Positions 23,796 to 46,726 of a stretch of 64,000 nt of DNA are shown one piece after another (position 1 is the stretch's first letter; each line of letters begins with the position of its first letter). The notes beneath the pieces were generated by a model. It had not been told where the DNA came from. It searched no databases and saw nothing but the letters and a program-made list of their open reading frames with translations. Source of the DNA: Methylobacter sp. (GTDB lineage Bacteria > Pseudomonadota > Gammaproteobacteria > Methylococcales > Methylomonadaceae); assembly GCA_036741905.1 (NCBI GenBank), contig DAINRH010000001.1:34617-98616 (forward strand), given 5' to 3'. The position numbers and the translations under genes are program-made.

Positions 23796-23797
23796 TG

Positions 23798-25108: not shown

Positions 25109-25133
25109 TAAGAAATTCTATTTAAGAAAGGAA

Positions 25134-25496: not shown

Positions 25497-25522
25497 GTGA
25501 ATCTCCAGGTAAAAGTAAAAGA

Positions 25523-25571: not shown

Positions 25572-25663
25572 AGAAATAAAGAATGATCAGGCCGTAGTCA
25601 TCACAACCCTATGTACTTGTTGAATACCGGCTGTGATGTAACAGTTCAGCATTCCGGGCCTGT

Positions 25664-26014: not shown

Positions 26015-26041
26015 GGTTATGTCCTCTAAAGGTTTAAAAAA

Positions 26042-26083
26042 GAGGCAACTATTCCCAATGAGGACGTTGCCCCTTATGGGGTT
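26042..26083 (-). repeat. intergenic hairpin element
   Basis: Arms GGGGCAACGTCC/...AGTTGCCTC. Overlaps the TAA stop of 26082..26423. Upstream of 25664..26014. Confidence 0.5.
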
Positions 26084-26423
26084 AGTGAGGTTTTCTATTT
26101 TGGATGGATTCGAATTTGCCTAAAACAGCATCACGAATGTCATTAGGATCCAATCCAGATACCTTGCAGCAGTTGATGAAACTGAAGGGATTTAGATCGC
26201 CGATGTTCGTCAGCCAGTTGTATATTTCAACAACCGTTTTCATTGAACATCTATTGTCAAACAGATTGTGTAACGAATCTTCCAGAAGACAATCGCAGAT
26301 ATGCGCAATTTCTGTATCAGTCCAGGGCGGTACTTCTTCAGGCAAGGTCTCTGTGCTTTGTAGCCACAGCCATTGATCATCGAACAAGTCGAGATTTAGG
26401 CTACGATCAAAACCTCGTCGCAT
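26082..26423 (-). CDS. hypothetical protein
   Basis: 113-aa ORF preceded by a hairpin element and GGAGG. Confidence 0.5.
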   Translation of the reverse strand: MRRGFDRSLNLDLFDDQWLWLQSTETLPEEVPPWTDTEIAHICDCLLEDSLHNLFDNRCSMKTVVEIYNWLTNIGDLNPFSFINCCKVSGLDPNDIRDAVLGKFESIQNRKPH

Positions 26424-26439
26424 GGTGCCTCCAAAAATT

Positions 26440-26485
26440 CGGGAAACATATGCGCCCAGTCGGGGTCAGTGTTCCCCGATGGGTT
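26440..26485 (-). repeat. intergenic hairpin element
   Basis: Arms GGGGAACACTGA/...ATGTTTCCCG, apex CCCC-GACT-GGGC. Upstream of 26082..26423. Confidence 0.55.
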
Positions 26486-26514
26486 AAGGTTAATGATGAG
26501 TTAAGGTTTTAGAA

Positions 26515-27516: not shown

Positions 27517-27554
27517 AAAAGACTCCCAGTAAATAATGGGCGTCATGAAAAAAA

Positions 27555-27586
27555 CCAAGTGGGCTTTCAGTGACGCCCAACGGGTG
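27555..27586 (-). repeat. short hairpin variant
   Basis: Sense strand: CACCC-GTT-GGGCGTCACTGAAAGCCCACTTGG followed by T7. Upstream of 26515..27516. Confidence 0.45.
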
Positions 27587-32392: not shown

Positions 32393-33526
32393 TTGGAGAC
32401 CGTTAAACATCTACCCTTAACGGCCATGTCATCAAAAAATATGCAACAAGAAAAAAAGTTCGAGCCACCCGCAGTGGAAGCTTTTGATTGTAAGCAAATC
32501 GACTTGTTTCAATCCTTTCTATGCAATCACGAAGAACAGCGCGGAAAGCTGTCAAATGCCTTTCCGCTATGGGATTGCCTTCCCCGATATTCAATGTCGC
32601 GGCGAGCCGCACAGAAAATGCTAAAAGCCGGAACGTTTCCGAAGCTACTAAATATTGCGTGCCAATATTTAGGCCGAAAGATTAAGATTGAGATTCAGCC
32701 AGCCCGGCTTAATGATAATGGCGTGGTCACGGAATACTACCCTGGGACCAGCGAAGAGCTCGTTGAAGATGCCCTTCGAAAAATTGCGACATTGCAGAAC
32801 CATGGTTACTACGATGAAAGCCGCCCCAGACATGGCGTGTCATTTACGATCTACCAGTTACGCAAAGAATTGAAGAAACAAGGTCACACCCGCTCCTACC
32901 AGGAAGTTGTTCTGAGCTTAAGAATCTTGGCACGCAGCTCAATCGAAATCAGCTCCGAGGATAAAAAAAATAAGATTTACGACGTCTGCACCTATTTCAG
33001 CCGGCTGTCGACTGTATCAAGGGTCGGCTTGGAAGAAGATCCTGACGCGAAGTGGTATGTTGAATTCCATCCCCTGATTACCAAGGCGATCAGCGCCATT
33101 GATTACCGGCAGTTTAACTACGAACTAATGATGAGCCATAAAACGCAACTGGCTCGCTGGCTGCATAAATATCTCGTTGCCAAATTTATCAACGCATCGG
33201 TTGGTCAAAAGTTTGAAATGCGGTTTAGCACCATTAAACGTGATAGTGGATTGCTGGAGGGTTATGGGCGAAATCGCGCCGGGATGGAGGCAGTAAGAAA
33301 TGCGCTTAATGAATTAGCGAATAATGGAATATTGCAACCGATTCTAGAAAAAGAAGGCAAAGACGAAAAAGTTACGCCATTTATGGAAAACAAAATTATC
33401 GGCTCAAAGAGTGAGGTCGAAGACATCGTTTATACCGTCTTCCCCTCCGCCCAATTTTCAAGCGAGTCGAAAAGAGCAAATGCAAATGTTAATCGCCTGA
33501 AAGAAAAATCATCCGCAGACCGGTAG
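32393..33526 (+). CDS. plasmid-type replication initiator (RepA/TrfA-like; call rests largely on context)
   Basis: 377-aa ORF transcribed divergently from the array. Its stop lies inside the first of 7 iterons. TTG start at 32393, alternative ATG at 32426. No strong motif recognised by eye. Confidence 0.55.
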   Translation: METVKHLPLTAMSSKNMQQEKKFEPPAVEAFDCKQIDLFQSFLCNHEEQRGKLSNAFPLWDCLPRYSMSRRAAQKMLKAGTFPKLLNIACQYLGRKIKIEIQPARLNDNGVVTEYYPGTSEELVEDALRKIATLQNHGYYDESRPRHGVSFTIYQLRKELKKQGHTRSYQEVVLSLRILARSSIEISSEDKKNKIYDVCTYFSRLSTVSRVGLEEDPDAKWYVEFHPLITKAISAIDYRQFNYELMMSHKTQLARWLHKYLVAKFINASVGQKFEMRFSTIKRDSGLLEGYGRNRAGMEAVRNALNELANNGILQPILEKEGKDEKVTPFMENKIIGSKSEVEDIVYTVFPSAQFSSESKRANANVNRLKEKSSADR

Positions 33527-33959: not shown

Positions 33960-34373
33960 ATGAGCAAAACGAAAAATAGAGATTCTTACCAGCCTGATGG
34001 CCTAAATCGACTTTTTTGGCTTGCAGCAAAAAATATAGCCGTACCTGATCCTGATTTTGGCGCAAAAGACAATGTGCTTTTTGCAATGTCTTTGTATTCC
34101 GGTGTCAAGCTAAAGGACATCAGAATGAGCGATATGGTCGACATGGTCATTCATGCGTTGGCTGAGTATTTCCAGCACAAAGGTATCGCTGTAAACGATC
34201 TTCATGATTTGCTTAATCCGCTTCGAACCGATTACGCGGTGCTAACAAACCAGAAGTGGGATCAGAACCAAGCTTCTCAAAAAATCATTGAAAGCTGCAT
34301 GACTCGATTAGCCTTAGCGCAGATGCGATCTAAATGTGACTTAATGCCGGACAACGACCTAGGTTGTTGCTAA
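33960..34373 (+). CDS. hypothetical protein (137 aa)
   Basis: ORF downstream of the oriV region with AAAGGA upstream. No family recognised. Confidence 0.45.
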   Translation: MSKTKNRDSYQPDGLNRLFWLAAKNIAVPDPDFGAKDNVLFAMSLYSGVKLKDIRMSDMVDMVIHALAEYFQHKGIAVNDLHDLLNPLRTDYAVLTNQKWDQNQASQKIIESCMTRLALAQMRSKCDLMPDNDLGCC

Positions 34374-34383
34374 TAGTGAATTT

Positions 34384-34545
34384 ATGCTGCAAGACATTGC
34401 TAAATTCAAAACGTCTGTTCGAGTTGCCGCTGAACGACGGAATCCGCGTACTGGTGAAATGCTCCATTCACCCGAGAAGAAAGTTGTGAAAGTGACGCTG
34501 GCGAAAATCTTAAGGGATGCTCGGCGAATTAAGAAAAAAATGTAA
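34384..34545 (+). CDS. 53-aa HU/IHF-like fragment (beta-arm half only)
   Basis: Translates to MLQDIAKFKTSVRVAAERRNPRTGEMLHSPEKKVVKVTLAKILRDARRIKKKM*. The RNP.TGE...KKVVKF pattern is typical of HU/IHF arms. The N-terminal helical half is absent. Confidence 0.35.
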   Translation: MLQDIAKFKTSVRVAAERRNPRTGEMLHSPEKKVVKVTLAKILRDARRIKKKM

Positions 34546-34558
34546 TTTCATGCCTGAC

Positions 34559-34581
34559 TGGCAGTTGTTAAAAGCAACTGC
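34559..34581 (+). terminator. hairpin after the HU-like ORF (weak terminator candidate)
   Basis: GGCAGTTG-TTAAAAG-CAACTGCC stem-loop. No clear U-run follows. Confidence 0.3.
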
Positions 34582-35454
34582 CTAGCAATTTATTAACTGT
34601 GAAAAAAATAGCCAACATAGCCTTTGCATTTCTGGTTGAAACGCTGGGGCTTCCAGGTCTCATAAAGTCGGCCTACAAGGTGCTTGCATACCAGATGAAA
34701 TTTCGGATCGAGTTTCCTGAAAACAGTCGTTGTCACTGTATTTACCGATCCGATCATTTTTCTCCTGACATCCGGGGTTCTGCTTTGGATGTATCTGGAC
34801 GAGATGCTGTCTGAAATCCAAAAATATCAACCTTAGAATTATTTTCTGCTACCCGACAGGAAGCTCAGTATTAACATTTAACGGTAACCAACTCCCGCCA
34901 ATCCGTCGTATAGCGCTGTGAAACCCGTTCCGCTTTCAACGTCCAGGTCTTATCAAAATCGGTTGCTGCTACTGAAATGGTCTTCGGAAAGCGCCGGTTG
35001 ATTTGATCGACAAATATCAAGTTTTTAATTGAGAATTTTAATCTGGTTCAACTACCGCAGTGGAGTGTGTTGAAGTTTCATTCCACGGTTATGATCAAAC
35101 TCCGCAGGAATTGTTTAAGATTCTTGAAGGCCATAAGTTTGTATGTCAGCTCGATAAGCAATTCCAATTGTCACTAAGTCATCTCGGGCTTCAATGCATA
35201 CTTTTGAACCACATCCATGGAAAAACAACAACTCGGAACAATTGATAAGGCTTTGATAGCAAGGTTGTCCATAACGGTGATGGAAAAGTTAATTCTGAGC
35301 ATAATCGGCTTAAATCGGCAAAGATCGTTTGACATCAGGGGGGCATTCCTATATTTTCAAACGATTAAGTTTAGGGGGAGTCGTGCTTGCTTCCCTATTT
35401 CGTATCAGGCGAGTGCATGGTTTATAACCCAATCGTCCATGAGGAGTTTGAGAA

Positions 35455-35655
35455 ATGGCCGAGATGGAAGACCGCTGGTTATCAATTAATGAGATATGCA
35501 AGCACCTCGGTGTCAGCAACGACACTGTGTACAAGTGGATTGATAGGCACGACATGCCAGCTCATCGCATGGGACGCCTCTGGAAATTCAAAAAAGACGA
35601 GGTAGACGATTGGGTGAAAGCTGGTGGGGCTGCTGAGCGCGTAAAGAAAGAATAA
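35455..35655 (+). CDS. excisionase/MerR-type HTH DNA-binding protein immediately upstream of brxA
   Basis: WLSINEICKHLGVSNDTVYKWIDRHDMPAHRMGRLWKFKKDEVDDWV is an HTH_17/Xis-like domain. Confidence 0.7.
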   Translation: MAEMEDRWLSINEICKHLGVSNDTVYKWIDRHDMPAHRMGRLWKFKKDEVDDWVKAGGAAERVKKE

Positions 35656-35662
35656 GATTAGG

Positions 35663-36274
35663 ATGAAGAACGATAGATACAGCATGTCATTTACAACGGG
35701 CGGCCTCTTTTACCGCGAATCGGTTAAACTGGCTGCGTTGTTTATTGAGCTCAATGATTGGAATGCCGTTAGAAACAAAGTCCTTTCTGAGAATCTGTTA
35801 CAGGCGAGAACGCAAAATACGTTGAAACGTGTTTGCCGGGAGATTATTTCAAGGCTAAAAACGCTCGCTCCCCATGAGATCGAATTACTGATACACGGTA
35901 GTTCCCAAGAGCAAAACTATCTTTTGTGGATCGCAGTTTGCCGTCGCTACAAATTCATTGCTGACTTCGCGGTCGAAATTATTCGTGAACGTTACCTTAG
36001 CCTTAAGACAGATCTACATTACGAAGATTTTGATGCATTCTTTAATAGAAAATCAGAGTGGCATCCTGAACTTGATGAAATACAGCCAGCGACTAGAAGT
36101 AAACTGCGCCAGGTGTTGTTCAAAATGTTACGGGAAGCGGAGCTTTTGACTGCCAATAATATAATCAATGCGGCCATGCTGACTCCAAAGCTTGTGGAGA
36201 CTACACTTCTCCATAGCAAGCAGGATCTTTTAATTTTTCCGATATTTGAGTCAGATTTGAAAGGATGGAAATAG
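35663..36274 (+). CDS. brxA: BREX protein BrxA (DUF1819)
   Basis: MSFTTGGLFYRESVKLAALF...LLQARTQNTLKRVCREIISRLKTL, with the expected size and position upstream of brxB and brxC. Confidence 0.8.
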   Translation: MKNDRYSMSFTTGGLFYRESVKLAALFIELNDWNAVRNKVLSENLLQARTQNTLKRVCREIISRLKTLAPHEIELLIHGSSQEQNYLLWIAVCRRYKFIADFAVEIIRERYLSLKTDLHYEDFDAFFNRKSEWHPELDEIQPATRSKLRQVLFKMLREAELLTANNIINAAMLTPKLVETTLLHSKQDLLIFPIFESDLKGWK

Positions 36275-36885
36275 TGGCTTCCAGTATCACAGCGTTAAAC
36301 ATACAAGAAAGCTTTGAGCATCTTCTGACTGTTCTCTCTGGACAAAGATTTTTACAAAAAGAGGGGCTTGGTAACGAGGTTCCATTCTTTATTTGCCCAT
36401 TCGATGTTAGTGTTTCTGTTGATGTCACTAGGCTTCAAAAGCAACTTGTCAATCGTCTTGAACAATCCGGCATTAGGGTGTTGGAAATCAATCTATATGA
36501 TCTCTCCATTGAGATTCTCAAAGACCGTGGCGTTTGGGAGCAGATCATTGAAATGGAACCCACCGTGTCAAAGGACCAACTCAAAGAGTTGCTCCAGGGG
36601 ATTTTGGATCCTGAGACTAATTTAGTACCTGCTATCGCTACCAAGCTCAAGAACAACGAATTTGAAGTGCTCTTTCTGACAGGTGTCGGAGAGGTTTTCC
36701 CTTATATCCGATCGCATCATGTACTCAATAATTTACAGAGTACCGCAAAAGAAAAGCCAACCCTTATGTTTTTTCCTGGAGCCTATACCCACTCCTTGGA
36801 ATCCGGTGCATCACTTGATTTATTCGACAGATTACACGACGACAAGTACTACCGAGCGTTCAACATCTTTCACTGCGAAGCCTAA
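36265..36885 (+). CDS. brxB: BREX protein BrxB (DUF1788)
   Basis: FLQKEGLGNEVPFFICPFD...LFLTGVGEVFPYIRSHHVLNNLQ. Overlaps the brxA end. Confidence 0.8.
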   Translation: MEIVASSITALNIQESFEHLLTVLSGQRFLQKEGLGNEVPFFICPFDVSVSVDVTRLQKQLVNRLEQSGIRVLEINLYDLSIEILKDRGVWEQIIEMEPTVSKDQLKELLQGILDPETNLVPAIATKLKNNEFEVLFLTGVGEVFPYIRSHHVLNNLQSTAKEKPTLMFFPGAYTHSLESGASLDLFDRLHDDKYYRAFNIFHCEA

Positions 36886-36896
36886 ACGAGGGCAAT

Positions 36897-39800
36897 GTGA
36901 CAACTCTTAAAACTATTTTTAAAAAGCCAGTTGACCGCCCGATTGAAGGGGTTATTAAAGCAGATGATGAAGCAAGCCTTCGTCTTGAGATCGAAGAATA
37001 CGTGCTGACCAATGAGGTGGAAAAGCGTCTGGAGTCATTCCTGGATGCTTACAACACCTACGAAGGTGCTAACGGTGTTTGGGTTTCCGGCTTCTTCGGT
37101 TCCGGTAAATCACATCTTTTGAAGATGCTTGCCTTGCTGCTTGAAAATCGTGAGATTGATGGTGTTTCGGCTATCGACCTGTTCTTGCCAAAATGTGTGG
37201 ACAACGAAATTCTTCGTGGTGATCTAAAACGGGCTGTTGCTATTCCCTCGAAAAGCATTCTGTTTAACATTGATCAAAAAGCGGATGTTATCAGTAAGAC
37301 CCAGATTGACGCGCTACTCGCAGTTTTCGTCAAGGTATTTGATGAAACATGCGGTTACTATGGAAAGCAGGGGCACATTGCCCAATTTGAACGCGACTTG
37401 GACAGTCGTGGGTTATATGCGGAGTTCAAGACAGCCTATCAAGTAATATCCGGAAAGGATTGGCATAAAGGACGGGAACAAGCGCTTTTGGAGTCGCAAA
37501 GCATCGCAAAAGCTTATGCCAAGATAGCTGGCGATCCTGAAACATCGGCATTGGGCATTCTCGACAAGTACAGAAGCCAGTATCGAGTGTCTATTGAGGA
37601 TTTTGCGGAGCAGGTCAATGCCTACGTGGATAGGCAATCGCCCGACTTTCGACTGAACTTCTTTGTTGACGAAGTTGGGCAGTATATTGCAGAAAACGTG
37701 AAGTTGATGACTAACCTGCAAACTATTGCCGAGAGCCTTGCCACCAAATGTAGAGGCCGTGCTTGGGTTATTGTGACTGCTCAGGAGGACATGAATACAG
37801 TGTTAGGTGAGATGGGGCACCAGCAGAGCAACGACTTTACCAAGATCCAAGCCCGTTTTGCTAATCGAATGAAGCTCACTAGCGCCGATGTGGCCGAGGT
37901 GATTCAAAAACGTCTATTATTGAAAAATGACGAAGGTGTTCAGCTTTTAACTGATGTCTATCATAATCAATCAAATAATTTTAAAACCCTGTTTGATTTT
38001 GCCGATGGCTCTCAAACCTATCGCAATTTTCAAGATCGCGATCACTTCATTCACAGTTATCCATTCATTCCATACCAGTTCGCCTTATTCCAGGCGGCGA
38101 TTGCCAACCTCTCACAACATAATGCATTTGAGGGTAAACATAGCTCGGTTGGTGAACGATCAATGCTCGGCGTATTCCAACAGGTAGCCATTCAAATCGG
38201 CAGTCATCAAATTGGTCAGCTCGTGACCTTTGATCTTATGTTCGAAGGGATTCGCACGGCTCTGAAGTCCAACATCCAACGAGCCATTCTGCAGTCCGAA
38301 AAACACCTCGATGGCCCATTCGCTATTCGCCTGTTGAAAACTCTTTTTCTGGTCAAATACGTGAAAGAGTTTAAACCGACGCTTCGCAACCTATGCGTAA
38401 TGATGCTGGATGGTTTTAATCAGGATCTGCCTCAACTCCGCAAGTCGGTAGAAGAGGCTCTTCAATTACTCGAACAGCAGACTTACATCCAGCGCAATGG
38501 TGATCTCTACGTATATCTGACCGATGAGGAAAAGGATGTCGAAGAAGAAATTAAGAACACCGATGTTGAATCAACCGATGTTGCCGCTGAACTGGAAAAA
38601 ATCGTCTTTGATCATGTAGTAAAAAACAAAAAAATCCGTTACGAGGATAACGGCCAGGATTATCCCTTCTCAAGAAAACTGGATGACCGCTTGCATGGGC
38701 GCGAATATGAGCTGACCATTCATATCATCAGTCCTTTCCATGAATTTGCCGATAATCAAACTTCGCTGATCATGCATTCTTTTGGGCGAGATGAACTTCT
38801 GGTCGTAATGCCACAAGATGCACGACTTGTACGCGACATCTTGATGTACAAACGCACAGAAAAACATATTCGCCAGAACATCTCTATCACCCAGCAAGAG
38901 GCGGTTAAACGTATTCTCACCGACAAGGGCTTCCAAAATCGGGAGCGTTACACCGAATTACAAAAACGCATTCAAAGCCTGCTGGGCAAAGCCAAACTCT
39001 ATGTCGCAGGCAGTGAAATCGAGATTAGCGGTGAAGACCCACAAACTCGAATCAGTCGTGGTTTTCATGAGCTCATTACCCGAGCCTACCCCAACTTGCG
39101 GATGTTACGAGGAATTAACTACACCGAGAACGATGTCGCCAAATGCCTCAAGTATTCCGAAGATGGATTGTTTGGCAACGATACGACATCATTGGCGGAA
39201 TCAGAGCAAGAGTTATTGGCCTTCATTCAAAGCAACACCCGCAATGGAATTCGTACAACTCTGAAAAGTCTGCTGGATAAATTCGAACGAAAACCTTATG
39301 GCTGGTATTACGCAGCTGTGCTCTGCACACTTGCCAATCTGTGTGCTCGTGGCAAGGTGGAGGTTCGAACCGACGGCAATATTCTTGAGGAGGATGAGCT
39401 TGAACGAGCATTGCGCAACACGCGCGAACAAAGCAATGTCGTGCTGGAACCGCAAGTTGATTTTACGGCATCACAGATGCGCAACCTCAAAGAATTCTAT
39501 GCGGATTTTTTTGATTCCCCACCTCGCGCAAATGAAGCCAAGGCACTTGGCAAAGAAACTGGCGAAGCACTACAGGAATTAATTAATCAACTGGCTCCGC
39601 TGTCGTCCCAGTCATCGCAATATCCCTTTCTGAATGCGCTGACCTTGGTGCATGAGAAATTAAAGGAACTTGGCGGTAAACCCTACGCCTGGTATCTGAC
39701 TGATTTGTTGCGCCAGGAAGATGAGTTACTCGACTTGAAGGAAAAGATCATTGATCCGGTTCGCAAGTTCATGAACGGACCACAGAAGGAAATCTATGAT

Positions 39801-40439
39801 AGTGCCCGACAATTTGTACAGGTACAGAATGCTAATTTCTCTTACATCGAAGGCGATGATTCTTCTCAGATTATAGAAGCACTGGCAGATCCAGAGTGTT
39901 TCAAGGGTAATCGTATGCAGCAGGTGAAGGCTCTTGTTGATACCGTCCAAGTAAAGGTGACAACGCAGATCCTTGCTGAAATCACCCAAGCCATAGATGC
40001 CTCCCAAGCACTCAAGGAGCGTCTGTGCGGTATGACCGAATTTTCTGAGCTCTTAGCAGAGCAACAGGAACAAATAACGCTATCATTCACCAAGTTTGCC
40101 CAGTCTGTTGAATGTCAAAAATTGATAGCCGTGATTCGCGACACCCTGCGACGCTTCGAGGAAACTGACTACCAGTGCCTGCTGTCCAAAATGTCGTCCT
40201 GGACCCAACCAATACCAGAGCCGACTGCATTACAAAACCCAACGCCAGAACCACATGCTGGGGCAGCACCTGTAATTGTTAAGCCCGAACCCCACATTGA
40301 ATATATCCACAGTCGGTCGGTTCGAGTCTCCTTCAACAAGGCCTGGCTTGCAAATGAATCGGATGTAGATCGCTACCTGGAATCCATGCGTGAAGCACTG
40401 CTCGCAGAGATCCGTAGCGGAAAAAGGATTCAAATATGA
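36897..40439 (+). CDS. brxC: BREX ATPase BrxC/PglY
   Basis: 1,180 aa. N-terminus KPVDRPIEGVIKADDE. Walker A GFFGSGKSH at 37089-37115. Walker B FFVDEVGQY. Confidence 0.9.
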   Translation: MTTLKTIFKKPVDRPIEGVIKADDEASLRLEIEEYVLTNEVEKRLESFLDAYNTYEGANGVWVSGFFGSGKSHLLKMLALLLENREIDGVSAIDLFLPKCVDNEILRGDLKRAVAIPSKSILFNIDQKADVISKTQIDALLAVFVKVFDETCGYYGKQGHIAQFERDLDSRGLYAEFKTAYQVISGKDWHKGREQALLESQSIAKAYAKIAGDPETSALGILDKYRSQYRVSIEDFAEQVNAYVDRQSPDFRLNFFVDEVGQYIAENVKLMTNLQTIAESLATKCRGRAWVIVTAQEDMNTVLGEMGHQQSNDFTKIQARFANRMKLTSADVAEVIQKRLLLKNDEGVQLLTDVYHNQSNNFKTLFDFADGSQTYRNFQDRDHFIHSYPFIPYQFALFQAAIANLSQHNAFEGKHSSVGERSMLGVFQQVAIQIGSHQIGQLVTFDLMFEGIRTALKSNIQRAILQSEKHLDGPFAIRLLKTLFLVKYVKEFKPTLRNLCVMMLDGFNQDLPQLRKSVEEALQLLEQQTYIQRNGDLYVYLTDEEKDVEEEIKNTDVESTDVAAELEKIVFDHVVKNKKIRYEDNGQDYPFSRKLDDRLHGREYELTIHIISPFHEFADNQTSLIMHSFGRDELLVVMPQDARLVRDILMYKRTEKHIRQNISITQQEAVKRILTDKGFQNRERYTELQKRIQSLLGKAKLYVAGSEIEISGEDPQTRISRGFHELITRAYPNLRMLRGINYTENDVAKCLKYSEDGLFGNDTTSLAESEQELLAFIQSNTRNGIRTTLKSLLDKFERKPYGWYYAAVLCTLANLCARGKVEVRTDGNILEEDELERALRNTREQSNVVLEPQVDFTASQMRNLKEFYADFFDSPPRANEAKALGKETGEALQELINQLAPLSSQSSQYPFLNALTLVHEKLKELGGKPYAWYLTDLLRQEDELLDLKEKIIDPVRKFMNGPQKEIYDSARQFVQVQNANFSYIEGDDSSQIIEALADPECFKGNRMQQVKALVDTVQVKVTTQILAEITQAIDASQALKERLCGMTEFSELLAEQQEQITLSFTKFAQSVECQKLIAVIRDTLRRFEETDYQCLLSKMSSWTQPIPEPTALQNPTPEPHAGAAPVIVKPEPHIEYIHSRSVRVSFNKAWLANESDVDRYLESMREALLAEIRSGKRIQI

Positions 40440-41500
40440 TCAAACAACTCAAACTTACCAATTTTACTAACTTTAGCAGATTGAGAATTGACTTCTCGCC
40501 CAAGATCAATGTGATTATAGGTGAAAATGGTACCGGCAAAACTCATTTGCTAAAAGCAGCCTATGGCCTTTGTGCCGGAAGCGCTCTGCACAAGAACAAG
40601 CCAAATATCAGCCAGGATGAGATAGAAACTGCTCTTACGACCAGAATGTTACGTCTCTTTATGCCGCTTGATGACAAGCTTGGCAAGATGCACCGACAGG
40701 GTTCTGCTGAACAAGCCCAGTTGCATGTAGATTTTGCTTTAGGACAAAAGTTAACCGTCACGTTCTTCAATAACTCTAAGTCTCTGGTTATTCAAGACAG
40801 CGCCAATTACGAACAATTTCAAGCCGAACCTGTTTTTATCCCAACCAAAGAAGTTCTCTCCTTTATGAAGGGATTCACAAGCCTGTACGATAAATACGAC
40901 CTCTCATTCGACCAGACATATCGTGATGTCTGTGGATTCTTGGATTTACCTGAAGTCCGCGCAGAAACCCTACATGAAAAATCTAAATGGGCGATGAACG
41001 AGATTCAAGGTATCTGCGGTGGACGGTTTATCTTCTATGGTGGCGGCAAAGTTACTTTCAGAACCGACAACGCCGAGTATTCGGCAAATGCGATGGCAGA
41101 AGGATTCCGTAAGGCGGGCATGCTGTCGCGTCTGCTCGAAACAGGCGTCATTCGGCCCGGTGTTAGCGGCCCGCTTTTTTGGGACGAACCAGAATCTAAC
41201 ATGAACCCCAAGCTTATGAAGCTACTGGTGCAGATTCTGCTGGAATTGTCGCGCAACGGGCAACAGATTATCCTTGCCACTCATGACTATGTACTACTCA
41301 AATGGTTCGACCTGCTTATGGACAAGGGTAAGGAGGATCATGTACGTTTCCACGCTCTGTATAAGGACACCGAGACCGGTGCAATTAATGTGGATAGCGT
41401 TGACGATTATCGAGCCATCTCCCCGAATGCAATCGCAGAGACATTCAATGATCTGACAAAGGAGCAGGTCAACCAAAAAATGGGGAGCTTGGGTAAATGA
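40436..41500 (+). CDS. ABC/SMC-head-type ATPase (AAA_21-like) inserted between brxC and pglX
   Basis: Walker A GENGTGKTH, Walker B LFWDEPESNMNP, H-loop ILATHD. ATGA overlaps with both neighbours. Confidence 0.75.
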   Translation: MIKQLKLTNFTNFSRLRIDFSPKINVIIGENGTGKTHLLKAAYGLCAGSALHKNKPNISQDEIETALTTRMLRLFMPLDDKLGKMHRQGSAEQAQLHVDFALGQKLTVTFFNNSKSLVIQDSANYEQFQAEPVFIPTKEVLSFMKGFTSLYDKYDLSFDQTYRDVCGFLDLPEVRAETLHEKSKWAMNEIQGICGGRFIFYGGGKVTFRTDNAEYSANAMAEGFRKAGMLSRLLETGVIRPGVSGPLFWDEPESNMNPKLMKLLVQILLELSRNGQQIILATHDYVLLKWFDLLMDKGKEDHVRFHALYKDTETGAINVDSVDDYRAISPNAIAETFNDLTKEQVNQKMGSLGK

Positions 41501-42021
41501 AGCTGAAGGAACGCGATCTAGAAATTAATTTCACCGATGCCATAGATGGACTTATATTTGACCAAATGAAACCTCACTTACCCGATTTTCATGGCATCGG
41601 TGAAATGCACCGAGTTGACTTCATTGTGGAATTCGATGAGGCCATCGTATTTGTTGAAGTTAAAGATCCAGGTAACCCAAACGCTCAGATAAAAGGGTTG
41701 GAAAAATTTCATGCAGGACTGAATGACGGTACGTTGAGCGCCACATTTTCGGCAAAATTCATCGACTCATTTCTGTATCGTTGGGCAGAGGAAAAAATAA
41801 CCAAACCGGTTTTTTATATTAATCTTGTTACTTTGGATGCGGAGTTGTTACTAAGTTTTTCAGACGAAATAGCCAAAAAGCTCCCACCTATGGGCAAGTC
41901 ACTACCCCGTTGGAAACGTCAGTTAGTTGAAAACTGTCAGGTCTTTAATATCGAGACTTGGAACGAAAATTTCCCGAAGTGGCCCGTCACTCGTCTAGCC
42001 TCGGTCACAGGAGGAACATAA
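41497..42021 (+). CDS. small PD-(D/E)xK-like protein partnered with the ATPase
   Basis: HRVDFIVEFDEAIVFVEVKD (D41...E54-x-K56) has a restriction-endonuclease-fold pattern. 174 aa. Coupled to the upstream ATPase. Confidence 0.5.
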   Translation: MKLKERDLEINFTDAIDGLIFDQMKPHLPDFHGIGEMHRVDFIVEFDEAIVFVEVKDPGNPNAQIKGLEKFHAGLNDGTLSATFSAKFIDSFLYRWAEEKITKPVFYINLVTLDAELLLSFSDEIAKKLPPMGKSLPRWKRQLVENCQVFNIETWNENFPKWPVTRLASVTGGT

Positions 42022-42026
42022 AAATA

Positions 42027-43820
42027 ATGAATACGGCAAAACTAAAAAAATTCGCCCAGTTTGCCCGACGCTGCCTGATTGATCAGATTTCAAGCAAACT
42101 GGAACTGGTACTGGCTGAGGACAGCGCGGCGCGGCGTGAGAGCATGAAAGCTGTCAAAAAGCTTGAAGAACAGATCAGCGAGCATGGCGAAGAACAGGTG
42201 ATCGAAAAGATCGCCTACATCTGGTTCAATCGTTTCTGCGCCTTGCGCTTCATGGATGTAAACAACTATACCCGCATTGGCTTGGTATCGCCCGCCGAAG
42301 GGCAGTTCCAGCCGGAAATTCTGGCTGAAGCCAAGATGGGGCATATCGACGAGGACATGGTGCCTGAAAAAATCCGGCAGCAGATTTTTGCCCTGCTCGG
42401 CGGCACTACGCCCAGCCGCGATCCACAGTCCGAAGCCTACCGCTTATTGGTGGTCGCTTCCTGCAACGATTACCACAAAGCCATGCCTTACCTATTTGAG
42501 CGCATTGCCGACTACACCGAACTTTTAATGCCCGATGACCTGCTTTCGGGTAGTTCCATCCTGGCCTACACCCGCGAAGCCATGACACCGGACATTTGCC
42601 AGGATGTCGAGGTAATCGGTTGGCTTTACCAGTTCTACATCTCTGAAAAGAAGGATGCCGTTTTCGACGGACTAAAGAAAAACAAAAAAATATCCCCGGA
42701 AAATATCCCTGCCGCCACTCAGCTTTTTACCCCACATTGGATTGTGCGCTATTTGGTGGAAAATTGTTTAGGTCGCCTGTGGATGCTCAACCGTCCCAAC
42801 TCGCGGTTGGTTGAAAAGATGGAATATTACATTCAAGCCGAGCAGGTCGAGACTGACTTTTTGCGCATCAACAAGCCTGAAGAGTTGAAACTCTGTGATC
42901 CCGCCTGCGGTTCCGGGCACATGCTGGTATACGCCTTCGATCTGCTTTATGTTATCTATGAAGAAGAAGGCGTTGATCCTGCCGAGATTCCAGAAAAGAT
43001 CCTGACCCATAACCTCTACGGCATCGAAATCGATGAGCGTGCTGGCGAACTGGCTGCGTTTGCCCTGACCATGAAGGCAAGAGCTAAACAGCGTCGTTTC
43101 TTTCGCAAGCCGGTACAACCTAATATCTGTGTGCTGGAGAACATCCATTTCGACGAAGCGGAAATCAACGAGTACATGGATTTCGTTGGGCAGGATATTT
43201 TTACGCTGGGATTGAAAGCCACCCTGAGCCAGTTTGAAGAGGCCGACAACTTTGGCTCTTTAATTCGCCCTGAAATGACCGACGTGGAAGGAACGCTATA
43301 TATTCTTGAAGCAAAGGATGCCGCCGGACATCTGTTTCTAAGCCTGACCCATCAGAAGGTGCTGCAAGCGTTAAGACAAGCCGACTATCTCAGTCCGAAA
43401 TATCATGTGGTGATTGCCAATCCGCCTTATATGAGTGGCAAAGGCATGAATGGCAGATTGGGGGCATGGGCCAAAGATAATTATCCCAATAGTAAATCGG
43501 ATCTTTTTGCCATGTTCATCGAGCGCAATCTGGAACTCTCAGTTAAACAAGGCGCTGTTGGCATGATTACCATGCAGAGTTGGATGTTTCTGTCTTCATA
43601 CGAGAAACTGCGTGATAGCATCCTCGATAAATATACAATTCTTTCCATGGCACATTTAGGCGCACGAGCCTTTGATAGTATTGGCGGCGAAGTGGTTTCG
43701 ACAACGGCTTTCGTTTTGGAAAATGCCCATCATCCTGAATACAAAGGAGCTTATGTTCGTTTGGTTGATGGCAATTCCGAAGCTGAGAAACAAGCCGCTT
43801 TCAAAGCGGCACTTGGATAA
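42027..43820 (+). CDS. pglX: BREX methyltransferase PglX, N-terminal half (methyltransferase domain) as a separate ORF
   Basis: MNTAKLKKFAQFARRCLIDQ...IAYIWFNRFCALRFMDVN is the PglX N-terminus. NPPY lies at 43419-43430. AGGAGG precedes the ATG at 42027. The ORF stops after ...AYVRLVDGNSEAEKQAAFKAALG. Confidence 0.85.
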   Translation: MNTAKLKKFAQFARRCLIDQISSKLELVLAEDSAARRESMKAVKKLEEQISEHGEEQVIEKIAYIWFNRFCALRFMDVNNYTRIGLVSPAEGQFQPEILAEAKMGHIDEDMVPEKIRQQIFALLGGTTPSRDPQSEAYRLLVVASCNDYHKAMPYLFERIADYTELLMPDDLLSGSSILAYTREAMTPDICQDVEVIGWLYQFYISEKKDAVFDGLKKNKKISPENIPAATQLFTPHWIVRYLVENCLGRLWMLNRPNSRLVEKMEYYIQAEQVETDFLRINKPEELKLCDPACGSGHMLVYAFDLLYVIYEEEGVDPAEIPEKILTHNLYGIEIDERAGELAAFALTMKARAKQRRFFRKPVQPNICVLENIHFDEAEINEYMDFVGQDIFTLGLKATLSQFEEADNFGSLIRPEMTDVEGTLYILEAKDAAGHLFLSLTHQKVLQALRQADYLSPKYHVVIANPPYMSGKGMNGRLGAWAKDNYPNSKSDLFAMFIERNLELSVKQGAVGMITMQSWMFLSSYEKLRDSILDKYTILSMAHLGARAFDSIGGEVVSTTAFVLENAHHPEYKGAYVRLVDGNSEAEKQAAFKAALG

Positions 43821-43823
43821 ACC

Positions 43824-45311
43824 ATGGCCTTTATCCTAGAAACCCTGCTGCAACAGCCTGAAGGCAAAACGCTCGAATTCAAGCGAGATTTATCCTCGCC
43901 TAAACCGCTGTTAAAAACCTTGGTGGCATTTGCCAATACCGCCGGCGGTCGTCTAGTCATTGGTGTGACAGATAATCATCAACTCATCGGAGTTGATGAT
44001 CCGTTAACTGAAGAAGAACGTATCTGTAACATGATTGCCGATGCCATTTCGCCCCGTCTGGTACCGAATGTCGAAATGATCACGATTGAAGGCAAGACCT
44101 TATTGGTGATTGAGGTTTATCTCAGCAATTCGCGCCCACATTGGCTGAATACACAAGGCTCTGAGCTAGGCGTCTATGTCCGGTTGGGTTCTACCAATCG
44201 GCAGGCGGATCGTGAGTTGATCGCTGAGTTGCAGCGTTCAGTGGATGGCATTGCCTTTGATGAAATGCCTATGCCGGAACTTTCCATTGATGACCTGGAT
44301 CTGGCCTCTGCTCAAGCTCTGTTTGGTGATACACGACGCTTGGATGAGCAAACATTAATCACCTTAAAATTACTCACCGACTATCAGGGTCGACGGGTGC
44401 CGACCAAAGGCGCTGTCTTGCTTTTTGGTAAACAGCGCAGCTTTCACTTTGCTGACGCATGGATACAGTGTGGACGTTTTTTTGGTACCGAAAAAATAGA
44501 TATTTTTGATCATATCGATATCAATGCGCCACTGCCCAAAGCGGTGGATGAGGTCATGCTGTTTTTAAAGAAACATGCGTTTCGCGGTGCTGATTTATCT
44601 GAAATTCGCCGCAAAGATGTCTGGAGCATTCCGCTGGGCATCTTACGCGAAGCGGTCATCAATGCTATTGTTCATGCCGATTATTCCCAGCGCGGCGCTC
44701 CGATTCGGATCGTGTTTTTGGATGATCGCATTGAAATCGAGAATCCCGGCCTGTTCCTGCCTGGATTAACCTTGGAAGACATCAAACAGGGTACCTCTAA
44801 AATTCGTAACACCGTGATTGCCCGCGTCTTTAGGGAGTTACATTTAATCGAGCAGTGGGGCACCGGAGTACGTCGCATTTTTACCGAAGCCAAAGCGCTT
44901 GGGCTACCCGAACCTCAACTTATCGAAACGGGCATGAGGGTGCGCTTTATCATCTCGCTGCTGGAACCGATTCCGTTGCTGCGCACTACAAAACACGTAG
45001 ACGGTACAGTCAACGAACAAATCGATTCACGGCTAGAGTCACGGCTAGAGTCACGGCTAGAGTCAACGCTCGCCGCTAAAGTATTGTTGAAGCTGCATGA
45101 GCAAGAAACCGGTAAATCCGCACTCGCTCAACATCTAGGACACAAAACGGTTTCCGGCGAACTTCATAAACAAGTCAAACGATTACTGGAGTTGGAACTG
45201 ATTGAAATGACCCTGCCTGATAAACCCAATAGCCGTTTGCAGAAGTATCGGCTAACCGATAGCGGCCAGGACTTGATTAACGCAATATTGGATGAAAACA
45301 GACAGTCATGA
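43824..45311 (+). CDS. AlbA_2 (Schlafen-like) plus HATPase_c_4 plus wHTH putative regulator (RecG-like annotation class)
   Basis: PEGKTLEFKRDLSSPKPLLKTLVAFANTAGGRLVIGV is an AlbA_2 domain. REAVINAIVHADYSQRGAPIRIVFLDDRIEIENPG is HATPase_c_4. It starts 3 nt after the pglX-N stop. Confidence 0.75.
   Translation: MAFILETLLQQPEGKTLEFKRDLSSPKPLLKTLVAFANTAGGRLVIGVTDNHQLIGVDDPLTEEERICNMIADAISPRLVPNVEMITIEGKTLLVIEVYLSNSRPHWLNTQGSELGVYVRLGSTNRQADRELIAELQRSVDGIAFDEMPMPELSIDDLDLASAQALFGDTRRLDEQTLITLKLLTDYQGRRVPTKGAVLLFGKQRSFHFADAWIQCGRFFGTEKIDIFDHIDINAPLPKAVDEVMLFLKKHAFRGADLSEIRRKDVWSIPLGILREAVINAIVHADYSQRGAPIRIVFLDDRIEIENPGLFLPGLTLEDIKQGTSKIRNTVIARVFRELHLIEQWGTGVRRIFTEAKALGLPEPQLIETGMRVRFIISLLEPIPLLRTTKHVDGTVNEQIDSRLESRLESRLESTLAAKVLLKLHEQETGKSALAQHLGHKTVSGELHKQVKRLLELELIEMTLPDKPNSRLQKYRLTDSGQDLINAILDENRQS
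45027..45066 (+). repeat. 12-nt tandem repeat TCACGGCTAGAG, three full copies plus a partial fourth (encodes SRLESRLESRLES)
   Basis: Three exact units at 45027-45062 and a partial fourth, in frame within 43824..45311. Confidence 0.85.
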
Positions 45312-46726
45312 GTGCAGAACAAGCAACCGAAAATTTTTTAGAACAGAAAAAACCTCAGCTCAACTTCATCAAAACACGCGATGACGCCGATATTGTCGTA
45401 TTCGAAAAAACTGCTAACGATACATTCAAATTATCCACCAGTAATAGTTGCTCATGGTGTGGTGAAAATGGGGAGTTCACACAGAAAGAACTACGACCAC
45501 GCATTGAACCCTGGCTTACATCCTTGTTTCAGTCAGAACATCTCACTCTTTTAGCCGGTTCCGGTTTGACTCATGCCGTGCATCTTTTATCAACGGGTGA
45601 AAAGGCCACTGGGATGGACAAGATAGAATTTAGTATCTTGGCAAAAAAAATTAGCGCTGCTACAGAAGCATCAGCAGCCAGCGCAGATCGTAAAGAAGGA
45701 AATATTGAAGATCAAATTCGGGTAGCTAATGAATTACTTCGCGGCCTAGAGATTTTAGGATGTAAACAGGCAGATCAGATTCGTATAGAAATAACCGAAG
45801 CCCTAAAAAGTTTTGCAGAATCAATCCTCAAAAGCGAATCCAGTATTGCTAACGGAGAAGACCAAAAACGGGAAAAAGCCTTTAACACCCTCATCAACTT
45901 CCTGATGAGCTTTGCCAGTCGCACCGGAACCCGCGATCGACTTAATATTTTCACCACTAATTACGATCGCTTGATCGAAGCGGGCGCAGAACTGGCGGGT
46001 TTGCATCTACTGGACCGATTTTTAGGCAACTTGATGCCAGTATTCCGTTCATCGCGGCTGGATTTGGACATGCACTACAATCCGCCCGGCATTCGGGGTG
46101 AACCGCGATACCTTGAAGGTGTTACACGGTTCACCAAGCTGCATGGTTCGGTTGATTGGGTGCAGACTGGTAAAGACATTCGCCGCGTCGGACTACCCTT
46201 TGGCGCGGAGAGCGTAGAACCTTACCTGAAAGCACCTGCGCTAAAGGGGGCTACCGCGCATCAACTGATGATCTACCCCAATTCCGCGAAGGACAGGGAA
46301 ACATCTGCCTATCCCTATGTTGAGCTGTTCCGGGATTTTGCAGCGGCTACCTGCCGCCCGAATAGCACTTTGGTGATCTACGGTTACAGCTTTGGTGACG
46401 AGCATATCAACCGTATCATTGAAGATATGCTCACTATTCCATCTACCCATTTGGTCATCATTTCCTATGACGACCCGCTTGGACGCATCATCAAAACCTA
46501 CGAAAAAATTGGTCGTCCCTCGCAAACCACTTTATTGGTCGGCAACCATTTAGGTGATCTTAAAACCTTGACCGAACACTACTTACCTAAATCGGCCATT
46601 GATAAAGCCACCTTCCGCATGAGCGAACTACTCAATCAACGTTTTGGCACACAGCGCACAGAAAACAAAGCTGTAAATGCTGCTCCGAGCATGAATGACG
46701 ATGAAACTTTTGGTGGGCAAGTATGA
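45308..46726 (+). CDS. SIR2-like (SIR2_2) domain protein
   Basis: LLAGSGLTHAV...NIFTTNYDRLIE...KLHGSVDW...VIYGYSFGDEHIN. ATGA overlap with both neighbours. Confidence 0.8.
   Translation: MSAEQATENFLEQKKPQLNFIKTRDDADIVVFEKTANDTFKLSTSNSCSWCGENGEFTQKELRPRIEPWLTSLFQSEHLTLLAGSGLTHAVHLLSTGEKATGMDKIEFSILAKKISAATEASAASADRKEGNIEDQIRVANELLRGLEILGCKQADQIRIEITEALKSFAESILKSESSIANGEDQKREKAFNTLINFLMSFASRTGTRDRLNIFTTNYDRLIEAGAELAGLHLLDRFLGNLMPVFRSSRLDLDMHYNPPGIRGEPRYLEGVTRFTKLHGSVDWVQTGKDIRRVGLPFGAESVEPYLKAPALKGATAHQLMIYPNSAKDRETSAYPYVELFRDFAAATCRPNSTLVIYGYSFGDEHINRIIEDMLTIPSTHLVIISYDDPLGRIIKTYEKIGRPSQTTLLVGNHLGDLKTLTEHYLPKSAIDKATFRMSELLNQRFGTQRTENKAVNAAPSMNDDETFGGQV

What the first reader, a model, noticed from the sequence alone, without database searches (positions are those of the whole stretch)
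40436..42021. Uncharacterised two-gene module (ABC-type ATPase plus small PD-(D/E)xK protein) wedged between brxC and pglX
The 354-aa ATPase has Walker A GENGTGKTH, Walker B LFWDEPE and H-loop LATHD. It has no Toprim, HNH or other effector domain of its own.

It is ATGA-coupled to a 174-aa protein with a D41...E54-x-K56 nuclease-fold pattern. This resembles known ATPase-plus-nuclease defence pairs (Septu, PARIS, Gabija, OLD-like), but the partner is not the HNH, Toprim, DUF4435 or DUF4276 type I would expect.

It is also coupled to brxC upstream (ATGA), so it is expressed as part of the BREX operon. It is a candidate new defence pair or a BREX accessory.
Basis: partly seen in the sequence, partly recalled or inferred. 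Interest (0 to 1): 0.75.

Follow-up and report, generated by a model that had tools for sequence, protein, structure and literature searches.

The report
Known HEC-02 defence pair inside BREX
The two genes are real and almost certainly an anti-phage ATPase-plus-nuclease pair, but the pair is already published and catalogued as the defence system HEC-02, so this is an ordinary instance, not a discovery.

Summary
A 354-aa ATPase (40436-41500) and a 174-aa protein (41497-42021) lie between brxC and pglX, joined by ATGA overlaps, with the stated motifs.

The claim of novelty does not hold. PADLOC profiles match both proteins over their full length: HEC-02A at E 9.7e-119 and HEC-02B at E 2.1e-69. 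HEC-02 is an ABC ATPase plus a NERD-like PD-(D/E)xK nuclease. Payne et al. (bioRxiv 2024) showed that a Dickeya representative protects E. coli from phages and needs both genes. Their Table S8 merges a BREX/DISARM/RM-embedded cassette into the HEC-02 model. A 2026 NAR survey reports ABC-ATPase plus PD-(D/E)XK pairs embedded in BREX.

My own tests agree:
- The ATPase is 32% identical to the tested HEC-02A and folds as a Rad50/SMC/PtuA-like ABC head.
- D41/E54/K56 are invariant and align with the tested family's motif.
- The ATPase sits directly upstream of the small gene in 57 of 58 loci.
- 41 of 58 loci are BREX or BREX-like.

Caveats: this small-protein subfamily matches the tested one only over its N-terminal third, has not been tested experimentally, and its nuclease fold has only weak structural support.

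Side observation: pglX is split at its domain hinge, with defence genes inserted.

The parts
40436..41500 (+). HEC-02A: 354-aa ABC-type ATPase, the proposed sensor/regulator
   Evidence: PADLOC PDLC04213 HEC-02A matches at E 9.7e-119 over residues 1-350. Pfam gives AAA_21, AAA_15 and SMC_N. It is 32% identical, E 3e-58, over the full length to the tested Dickeya HEC-02A. The AlphaFold model (pLDDT 83.9, pTM 0.86) matches Rad50, SMC and PtuA ABC heads at E 1e-13 to 1e-10.
40520..40546 (+). Walker A / P-loop GENGTGKTH (residues 29-37)
   Evidence: Read directly from the sequence. G29, N31, T33, G34 and K35 are at least 95% conserved in 53 homologues.
41096..41113 (+). ABC signature-like motif AEGFRK (residues 221-226)
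   Evidence: A221, E222, G223, R225 and K226 are at least 95% conserved. It lies between Walker A and Walker B, as in ABC ATPases.
41174..41194 (+). Walker B LFWDEPE (residues 247-253), followed by a D-loop-like SNMNP
   Evidence: L247, W249, D250, E251, P252, E253, N255, N257 and P258 are at least 95% conserved.
41273..41287 (+). H-loop LATHD (residues 280-284)
   Evidence: T282 and H283 are at least 95% conserved.
40556..41095 (+). Variable insert region of the ATPase (residues 41-220; corresponds to ABC 'Insert 1/2'); the inferred specificity or sensor part
   Evidence: Class II ATPases are only 16-41% identical here, but 59-89% identical in the core and C-terminus, while their partner nuclease stays 67-75% identical. 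Payne et al. propose the inserts as specificity determinants.
41497..42021 (+). HEC-02B: 174-aa putative PD-(D/E)xK nuclease, the proposed effector
   Evidence: PADLOC PDLC04229 HEC-02B matches at E 2.1e-69 over residues 1-168. There is no Pfam hit even at E 10. hhalign against the tested HEC-02B family gives 80% probability and E 1.4e-5 over the N-terminal 61 columns. The model has pLDDT 75.8. Foldseek gives no hit at E <= 1e-3, but the top weak hits are PD-(D/E)xK nucleases.
41617..41619 (+). Catalytic-motif aspartate D41 (the 'D' of PD)
   Evidence: Invariant in 44 homologues. It aligns with the invariant D43 of the tested family. It immediately precedes strand 42-45 in the model.
41656..41664 (+). 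E54-V-K56 ((D/E)xK motif), followed by the invariant D57
   Evidence: Invariant in 44 homologues. It aligns with the invariant E56-x-K58 of the tested family. It lies in strand 50-56 of the model, after the beta-hairpin.
40436..40439 (+). ATGA overlap between the brxC stop and the ATPase start
   Evidence: Read from the sequence.
41497..41500 (+). ATGA overlap between the ATPase stop and the nuclease start
   Evidence: Read from the sequence. The same 4-nt ATGA/GTGA overlap occurs in 49 of 57 homologous loci.
36897..40439 (+). Context: brxC (upstream host gene of the embedding BREX type 1 operon)
   Evidence: PADLOC BrxC E 0, with Pfam BrxC domains.
42027..43820 (+). Context: N-terminal (methyltransferase) half of a split pglX, immediately downstream
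   Evidence: PADLOC PglX PDLC02521 positions 1-617 of 1174. It maps to residues 67-633 of Salmonella PglX 8C45.

Best explanation
The two genes are a member of HEC-02, a published two-gene anti-phage system: an ABC-type ATPase (HEC-02A) and a small PD-(D/E)xK-type nuclease (HEC-02B). Here the pair sits as a self-contained cargo module embedded in a type 1 BREX operon, between brxC and pglX.

Most likely mechanism:
1. The two proteins are made in fixed proportion by translational coupling and form a complex.
2. The ATPase, through its variable insert region (residues about 41-220), senses an infection cue and uses ATP binding or hydrolysis to release or activate the nuclease.
3. The nuclease cuts nucleic acid through its D41/E54/K56 metal site and stops phage propagation.

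What is shown here: family membership, motif conservation, the ABC fold, obligate gene pairing and coupling, and recurrent embedding in BREX, R-M and other defence systems.

What is shown by others, for a distant representative only: phage protection and the need for both genes.

What is inferred: complex formation, the sensor role of the inserts, nuclease activity and substrate, and whether the outcome is abortive.
For: Profile matches: full-length PADLOC matches to HEC-02A (9.7e-119) and HEC-02B (2.1e-69).

Published function: HEC-02 from Dickeya dianthicola lowered plaquing efficiency of at least two phages by orders of magnitude in E. coli, and both genes were required. HEC-02B is described as NERD-like with a (D/E/Q)xK motif. 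Payne Table S8 lists a BREX/DISARM/RM-embedded cassette (CAS_00063, count 347) as 'Incorporate into HEC-02 model'.

ATPase: 32% identical, E 3e-58, full length, to the tested HEC-02A. The model matches Rad50/SMC/PtuA ABC heads. Catalytic motifs are at least 95% conserved.

Nuclease: D41/E54/K56 are invariant and align with the invariant D43/E56/K58 of the tested family (hhalign 80%, E 1.4e-5). The D-strand-hairpin-ExK-strand topology appears in the model. The top weak Foldseek hits are PD-(D/E)xK nucleases.

Pairing: the ATPase is directly upstream of the small gene in 57 of 58 loci, with a 4-nt start/stop overlap in 49 of 57.

Autonomy: the same pair is embedded in a type I R-M system (L007) and a type 3 BREX (L043), and sits next to a MADS ATPase (L017).

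Inserts: divergence concentrates in residues 41-220 of the ATPase while the nuclease stays conserved.
Against: - The small protein is not significantly similar to the tested HEC-02B by BLASTP.
- Profile-profile homology covers only the N-terminal 61 columns, at 80% probability. The C-terminal two-thirds may be a different module.
- This subfamily has never been tested experimentally.
- No Pfam NERD or other nuclease family is detected, even at E 10, for either the window protein or the tested one.
- No Foldseek hit reaches E 1e-3, and TM-scores are 0.3-0.4, so the nuclease fold rests on motif, topology and weak hits.
- That the PDLC0421x-0422x profiles derive from cassette CAS_00063 is my inference; it is not stated in the paper.
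- Trigger, substrate and stoichiometry are unknown for any HEC-02.
Confidence: 0.85

Rival explanations
1. BREX-dependent guard or backup effector. The pair is not autonomous. It monitors the integrity of BREX (or of R-M systems in general) and fires when a phage anti-restriction protein such as a DNA mimic of the Ocr type inhibits PglX or BrxC. This is analogous to PARIS, in which AriA senses Ocr.
For: - 41 of 58 loci of this subfamily lie inside BREX or BREX-like operons, always next to brxC or pglX, and others lie inside a type I R-M system.
- There are ATGA overlaps with brxC and no separate promoter signal.
- PMC12839542 proposes such OLD-ABC-plus-nuclease dyads as a backup layer against counter-defence, and recalls that Ocr inhibits BREX and triggers PARIS.
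- The ATPase has partial PADLOC matches to AriA (1.8e-20).
Against: - The tested HEC-02 worked when cloned alone in E. coli MG1655 deltaRM, without BREX or R-M.
- 17 of 58 loci showed no BREX genes in the tblastn screen. One of these is embedded in a type I R-M system (L007). Three others checked (L028, L056, L057) have neighbours with no PADLOC match. Most of the rest were not examined or lie on short contigs.
- No trigger has been identified for any HEC-02.
- Embedding is common for many clearly autonomous systems.
Confidence: 0.12
2. Addiction or stabilisation module. The pair acts as a toxin-antitoxin-like cassette (nuclease toxin, ATPase antitoxin or regulator) whose main effect is to stabilise the BREX island or mobile element rather than to stop phages.
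For: - Pfam AAA_21 is annotated 'putative AbiEii toxin, Type IV TA system'.
- The locus sits in mobile-element-like surroundings: a group II intron reverse transcriptase, a YqaJ recombinase, a primase and a weak Rep3 hit.
- The tight coupling of the two genes resembles TA operons.
Against: - Phage protection was demonstrated for HEC-02.
- The pair is placed inside defence operons, not at the borders of mobile elements.
- The AAA_21 match is generic to ABC-type defence ATPases.
Confidence: 0.02
3. A core, previously unrecognised BREX subunit, or a housekeeping RecF-like repair ATPase with a partner.
For: One public source names a fragment of the ATPase 'recombinational DNA repair ATPase RecF'. 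NCBIfam RecF matches at E 4e-13, but only over residues 2-62 and with 49 bits against a cut-off of 172.
Against: - The RecF match covers only the P-loop region and is far below the cut-off.
- The pair occupies different positions in different BREX operons (brxC|pair|pglX, or inside a split pglX), and also lies in R-M and other contexts.
- It is not among the BREX core families.
Confidence: 0.01

Closest known systems
HEC-02 (Hma-embedded candidate 02; Payne, Hughes, Fineran & Jackson, bioRxiv 2024, doi 10.1101/2024.01.29.577857; PADLOC-DB v2)
   Same: - Two co-oriented adjacent genes: a ~340-355-aa ABC ATPase followed by a ~170-aa protein with a D...ExK motif.
- Both proteins match the PADLOC profiles over their full length.
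- The ATPase is 32% identical to the tested protein.
- The pair is embedded inside another defence system.
   Different: - The tested representative (Dickeya dianthicola) was embedded in Hma, not BREX.
- The window's small protein belongs to another HEC-02B subfamily (PDLC04229, against PDLC04145 for the tested one). It shares only the N-terminal catalytic third with it.
- This subfamily is untested.
BREX-embedded 'OLD-ABC ATPase + PD-(D/E)XK REase' dyads (NAR 2026, PMC12839542)
   Same: The genomic theme is the same: an ABC ATPase paired with a non-Toprim nuclease, nested in BREX core loci. It was reported in 594 taxa and interpreted as a backup effector layer.
   Different: That survey is purely computational and groups many dyads together. 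I did not verify that this exact family is in its supplementary data, nor that the ATPase carries OLD-family synapomorphies. My top Foldseek hits were Rad50, SMC and PtuA.
Septu (PtuA-PtuB) and retron-associated PtuAB
   Same: It is a two-gene ABC ATPase plus small nuclease system. PtuA is among the best structural matches to the ATPase model (8EEA, 8SUX, 9N69; E about 1e-11, TM about 0.5). The logic of an ATPase scaffold controlling a nuclease is the likely working analogy.
   Different: The partner is not an HNH nuclease. Sequence similarity to PtuA is limited to the P-loop region (residues 2-48). The ATPase is shorter and has no long helical insertion.
PARIS (AriA-AriB)
   Same: ABC ATPase plus a separate nuclease. 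It is often embedded in or next to restriction systems. There are partial profile matches to AriA (E 1.8e-20).
   Different: AriB is a Toprim/DUF4435 nuclease. No Toprim is present here. No evidence of an Ocr trigger.
Gabija / OLD family
   Same: An ABC-type ATPase is associated with a nuclease function.
   Different: GajA and OLD carry a fused Toprim domain, and Gabija needs the helicase GajB. Neither is present here.

Membership tests
HEC-02 | A component: an ABC-type ATPase of about 340-355 aa, homologous to HEC-02A | tested here: met
   PDLC04213 matches at E 9.7e-119 over residues 1-350. It is 32% identical, E 3e-58, over the full length to the tested WP_024108366. The ABC-head fold matches at E 1e-13. 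Walker A, signature, Walker B and H-loop are conserved.
HEC-02 | B component: a ~170-aa protein homologous to HEC-02B and carrying the (D/E/Q)xK motif | tested here: met
   PDLC04229 matches at E 2.1e-69 over residues 1-168, plus nine further HEC-02B profiles. D41/E54/K56 are invariant. Caveat: homology to the tested protein is detectable only by profile, over the N-terminal 61 columns (80% probability, E 1.4e-5). BLASTP is not significant.
HEC-02 | The B component has a NERD-like PD-(D/E)xK nuclease fold | tested here: inconclusive
   The model has pLDDT 75.8 and shows D41 before one strand, a hairpin, then E54xK56 in the next strand. Foldseek finds no hit at E <= 1e-3. The top weak hits (E 0.04-0.3) are PD-(D/E)xK nucleases (BspD6I, Can2, Cdn1, XisH, Hjc). 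Pfam NERD is not detected at E <= 10.
HEC-02 | The two genes are adjacent, co-oriented, with A upstream of B | tested here: met
   True in 57 of 58 loci; the one exception is cut by a contig end. A 4-nt overlap occurs in 49 of 57 loci.
HEC-02 | Found embedded inside other multi-gene defence systems | tested here: met
   Type 1 BREX in the window. 41 of 58 loci are BREX or BREX-like. L007 lies in a type I R-M system and L043 in a type 3 BREX.
HEC-02 | Confers phage resistance, and both genes are required | not testable with these tools
   Shown only for the Dickeya representative (Payne et al., Fig. 2 and Fig. S3).
PARIS | The partner is a Toprim (DUF4435) nuclease, AriB | tested here: not met
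   The small protein has no Toprim/DUF4435 match in Pfam or PADLOC.
Septu | The partner is an HNH nuclease, PtuB | tested here: not met
   No HNH match. PtuA similarity is limited to the P-loop in sequence, although the fold is similar.
Gabija / OLD | [quoted passage not shown] | tested here: not met
   The ATPase is 354 aa with no C-terminal Toprim. No helicase is adjacent.
BREX type 1 core | A gene present at a fixed position in canonical type 1 BREX operons | tested here: not met
   The pair takes two different positions in type 1 BREX operons and also occurs in R-M and other contexts. It is not one of the six core families.

The most novel reading that the evidence does not exclude
This BREX/R-M-embedded HEC-02 subfamily may be a guard rather than a stand-alone system. 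Its ATPase insert (residues 41-220, which diversifies while the nuclease stays constant) would recognise phage anti-restriction proteins that disable BREX or R-M, and then unleash the PD-(D/E)xK nuclease. That would be a PARIS-like 'anti-anti-restriction' layer with a different effector.

A second, independent reading concerns the host operon. pglX is naturally split at its MTase/TRD hinge into two subunits, and that fission point serves as a recurrent landing site for defence cargo, including this pair in nine other genomes.
Probability: 0.15. Interest if true: 0.5.

Novelty: already known. Interest (0 to 1): 0.15.

Why it matters
As a discovery it matters little.

It has modest value as an example. 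The window shows a type 1 BREX operon carrying at least four embedded or appended defence modules. It also documents three points about this subfamily:
- The nuclease partner is far more conserved than the ATPase inserts.
- The two genes are almost always joined by a 4-nt overlap.
- The pair is found mostly inside BREX.

These points could guide mechanistic work on HEC-02, whose trigger, substrate and stoichiometry are still unknown.

Tried and rejected
- Pfam and NCBIfam on the small protein gave no family, even at E 10. NERD is not detectable by sequence in the window protein or in the tested HEC-02B.
- A profile of the small-protein family against PDB sequences gave nothing meaningful (best hit E 0.031, a methyltransferase).
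- Foldseek of the small-protein model against PDB and BFVD gave no hit at E <= 1e-3, only a consistent enrichment of PD-(D/E)xK nucleases among weak hits.
- phmmer of the ATPase against PDB sequences gave only P-loop or Walker B-region matches (EcfA, PtuA, Rad50, ABCA3/4), so no close relative has a solved structure.
- Megablast of the pair against PLSDB plasmids found no match.
- The promoter and terminator scan of 34300-44000 showed no enrichment over shuffles (13 promoter-like sites found, 14.4 expected). No convincing internal promoter or + strand terminator lies around the pair. This is consistent with operon expression but does not prove it.
- PARIS, Septu, Gabija/OLD and AbiE-type TA were considered and rejected as families because the defining partner domains are absent.
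- The RecF annotation was considered and rejected: it is a P-loop-only match far below the cut-off.
- I did not determine the organism. The exact proteins occur in NCBI, JGI and Logan assemblies and in metagenomes without informative names.
Full report
**1. The observation**

The window holds two overlapping + strand ORFs exactly as described: 40436..41500 (354 aa) and 41497..42021 (174 aa).
- The brxC stop and the ATPase start share ATGA at 40436-40439.
- The ATPase stop and the small-gene start share ATGA at 41497-41500.
- The next gene starts 5 nt after the small gene's stop.
- The ATPase carries GENGTGKTH (29-37), LFWDEPE (247-253) and LATHD (280-284). It also has an ABC signature-like AEGFRK (221-226).
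- The small protein carries D41 and E54-V-K56.

**2. Surroundings**

The pair lies in a type 1 BREX operon:

| Gene | Coordinates |
|---|---|
| brxA | 35663-36274 |
| brxB | 36265-36885 |
| brxC | 36897-40439 |
| the pair | 40436-42021 |
| pglX N-half | 42027-43820 |
| Schlafen/AlbA_2-HATPase_c_4 protein | 43824-45311 |
| SIR2 | 45308-46726 |
| HerA | 46723-48885 |
| pglX C-half | 48857-50677 |
| DUF1016/YhcG PDDEXK protein (PADLOC PDC-S02) | 50667-51842 |
| pglZ | 51842-54343 |
| brxL | 54803-56869 |
| AAA_13 ATPase (PDC-S06) | 56862-59429 |
| SbcD-like phosphoesterase | 59426-60655 |

- No promoter or terminator signal above background separates the pair from brxC or pglX.
- The left part of the window looks like a mobile element. 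It has a group II intron RT, a YqaJ recombinase, an AAA_5/DUF3150/CobT-VWA set and a Toprim primase.
- The identical operon is present in metagenome contigs.

**3. What it is**

*Profile match.* PADLOC-DB profiles match both proteins end to end: HEC-02A PDLC04213 at E 9.7e-119 and HEC-02B PDLC04229 at E 2.1e-69.

*What HEC-02 is.* HEC-02 was defined by Payne, Hughes, Fineran and Jackson (bioRxiv 10.1101/2024.01.29.577857) as an ABC ATPase plus a NERD-like PD-(D/E)xK protein found embedded in Hma systems.
- One representative, from Dickeya dianthicola, lowered plaquing of at least two phages by orders of magnitude in E. coli.
- Both genes were required.
- Their Table S8 lists a BREX/DISARM/RM-embedded two-gene cassette (CAS_00063, count 347) with the decision 'Incorporate into HEC-02 model'. 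This most likely explains the extra HEC-02 profiles that the window matches. That link is my inference.

*BREX embedding.* A 2026 survey of BREX (PMC12839542) reports 594 taxa in which OLD-type ABC ATPases embedded in BREX loci are paired with PD-(D/E)XK, HNH or PIN nucleases instead of Toprim. It interprets them as backup effectors.

*Public annotation.* Public records call the window's exact proteins only 'hypothetical', or 'RecF' for a fragment.

**4. Independent tests of membership**

*ATPase*
- It is 32% identical over the full length to the tested HEC-02A (E 3e-58).
- Its AlphaFold model (pLDDT 83.9, pTM 0.86) matches Rad50, SMC-head and PtuA (Septu and retron) ABC ATPases at E 1e-13 to 1e-10, with TM about 0.45-0.55.
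- The nucleotide-binding motifs are at least 95% conserved in 53 homologues.

*Small protein*
- It is not significantly similar to the tested HEC-02B by BLASTP.
- The two families cross-hit each other's PADLOC profiles weakly.
- hhalign of the two family alignments gives 80% probability and E 1.4e-5 over the N-terminal 61 columns. D41/E54/K56 fall on the tested family's invariant D43/E56/K58.
- The model (pLDDT 75.8) places D41 before one strand and E54-x-K56 in the next strand after a hairpin. This is the canonical PD-(D/E)xK arrangement.
- Foldseek gives no hit at E <= 1e-3. The weak top hits are nearly all PD-(D/E)xK nucleases.
- NERD is not detectable by sequence.

So the fold assignment is plausible but not proven. 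This B subfamily shares only its catalytic third with the tested one.

**5. Co-occurrence**

Of 58 genomic loci encoding a relative of the small protein (one genome per species), 57 have an ATPase homologue directly upstream. The exception is cut by a contig end. The 4-nt start/stop overlap is kept in 49 of 57 loci.

| Context | Loci |
|---|---|
| Close type 1 BREX, brxC\|pair\|pglX as in the window | 19 |
| Close type 1 BREX, pair inside a split pglX | 9 |
| Flanked by weak BrxC/PglX-like matches | 12 |
| Type 3 BREX (L043, PglXI\|pair\|BrxHI) | 1 |
| Type I R-M (L007, HsdM\|pair\|HsdR) | 1 |
| Next to a MADS ATPase (L017) | 1 |
| Unclassified, or on short contigs | 15 |

The sampling was seeded from this subfamily, so the BREX bias applies to this subfamily only.

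**6. Mechanism**

What follows is inferred except where a call is cited.
- The conserved coupling suggests a fixed-ratio complex.
- Two ATPase classes accompany almost the same nuclease. The nuclease is 67-75% identical to the window's, against about 45% or 60-77% for the ATPase.
- The difference lies in residues 41-220, between Walker A and the signature motif. The core and the C-terminus stay 59-89% identical.
- This fits the published proposal that the ABC inserts set specificity and that the small protein is the effector.
- By analogy with Septu/PtuAB and PARIS, the ATPase would hold or activate the nuclease in response to an infection cue. This analogy rests on my own knowledge of those systems and on the fold match.
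- Trigger, substrate and outcome are unknown.

**7. Verdict**

The finding is real, and its functional guess is broadly right. But it is an already named, catalogued and (for a distant representative) experimentally validated system, in an arrangement already described for BREX. Its novelty is therefore 'already known' and its interest is low. The open points are the guard hypothesis and the untested status of this B subfamily.

**8. Side observation: split pglX**
- pglX is cleanly split. PglX-N residues 1-588 equal residues 1-598 of an unsplit homologue, and PglX-C residues 12-605 equal residues 602-1189.
- On Salmonella PglX (8C45), the halves map to residues 67-633 and 639-1217.
- That is the junction between the methyltransferase lobe and the TRD/CTD lobe. 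It is described as a flexible hinge in PMC11341690 and PMC11842806.
- The same split recurs in at least nine other genomes with different cargo between the halves.
- I found no mention of a natural split in the papers I checked. That literature check was not exhaustive.

Noticed in passing
window 42027-43820 and 48857-50677: pglX is split into two intact ORFs at the MTase/TRD hinge (8C45 residues 633|639), with three genes inserted between the halves. The same fission point recurs in L004, L005, L008, L010, L011, L014, L018, L019 and L033, with different cargo (the HEC-02 pair alone, or with SIR2-HerA). Other genomes have an unsplit PglX. The split may be a functional two-subunit PglX and a cargo hotspot. 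I found no report of it in the papers checked.
   Followed up: partly
window 43824-48885: Three genes are embedded between the pglX halves: a Schlafen AlbA_2 + HATPase_c_4 + Fic-like_C protein (495 aa), then SIR2 (PADLOC SIR2, 2.4e-165) and HerA (9.5e-270). The last two form a SIR2-HerA defence system. All overlap or abut one another.
   Followed up: partly
window 50667-51842: A DUF1016_N + YhcG_C PDDEXK nuclease (PADLOC candidate PDC-S02, E 7.6e-126) is embedded between the pglX C-half and pglZ.
   Followed up: no
window 56862-60655: Directly after brxL come an 855-aa AAA_13/SMC-like ATPase (PADLOC candidate PDC-S06, E 0) and an overlapping SbcD-like phosphoesterase (NCBIfam SbcD, 2.9e-116, below cut-off). 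This looks like an SbcCD-like or Lamassu-like appended module.
   Followed up: no
window 54803-56869: BrxL carries a C-terminal MIT_C / phospholipase-D-like domain (PF16565, residues 528-673) instead of a Lon-protease domain. This matches the 'BrxL-HKD DNase' variant described in PMC12839542.
   Followed up: no
L004, L005, L008, L010, L011, L013, L014, L018, L019, L025, L033 (ATPase genes): A second class of partner ATPase (~380 aa, ~45% identical to the window's) accompanies a nearly unchanged nuclease (67-75% identical). The divergence is confined to residues 41-220. This points either to module shuffling or to fast evolution of the insert region.
   Followed up: partly
PADLOC-DB profiles PDLC04145 / PDLC04146: The A/B labels look swapped for the original pair of profiles. 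PDLC04145 'HEC-02A' matches the small protein of the tested Dickeya system (1.2e-85), and PDLC04146 'HEC-02B' matches its ATPase (8.4e-183) as well as the window ATPase (3.2e-66).
   Followed up: yes
window 28509-30254 (- strand): A group II intron-type reverse transcriptase/maturase with an HNH domain (RVT_N, RVT_1, GIIM, HNH) lies upstream of the BREX island. The intron RNA was not examined.
   Followed up: no
window 11203-27558 (- strand) and 32393-33526: Mobile-element-like gene set: a Zn-ribbon/Toprim primase, AAA_5/CbbQ ATPase + DUF3150 + CobT/VWA proteins, a YqaJ recombinase, and a weak Rep3-like initiator hit. A 2372-aa Ig-domain protein lies at 3334-10452. The BREX island probably rides on a plasmid or an integrative element.
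   Followed up: no
window 35217-35489: A small ORF lies just upstream of brxA. In the identical metagenome contigs the gene called here is a 66-aa HTH_17 protein, a possible BREX regulator. The best promoter-like site in the scanned region (35329-35357, 10/12 matches) lies within or next to it.
   Followed up: no
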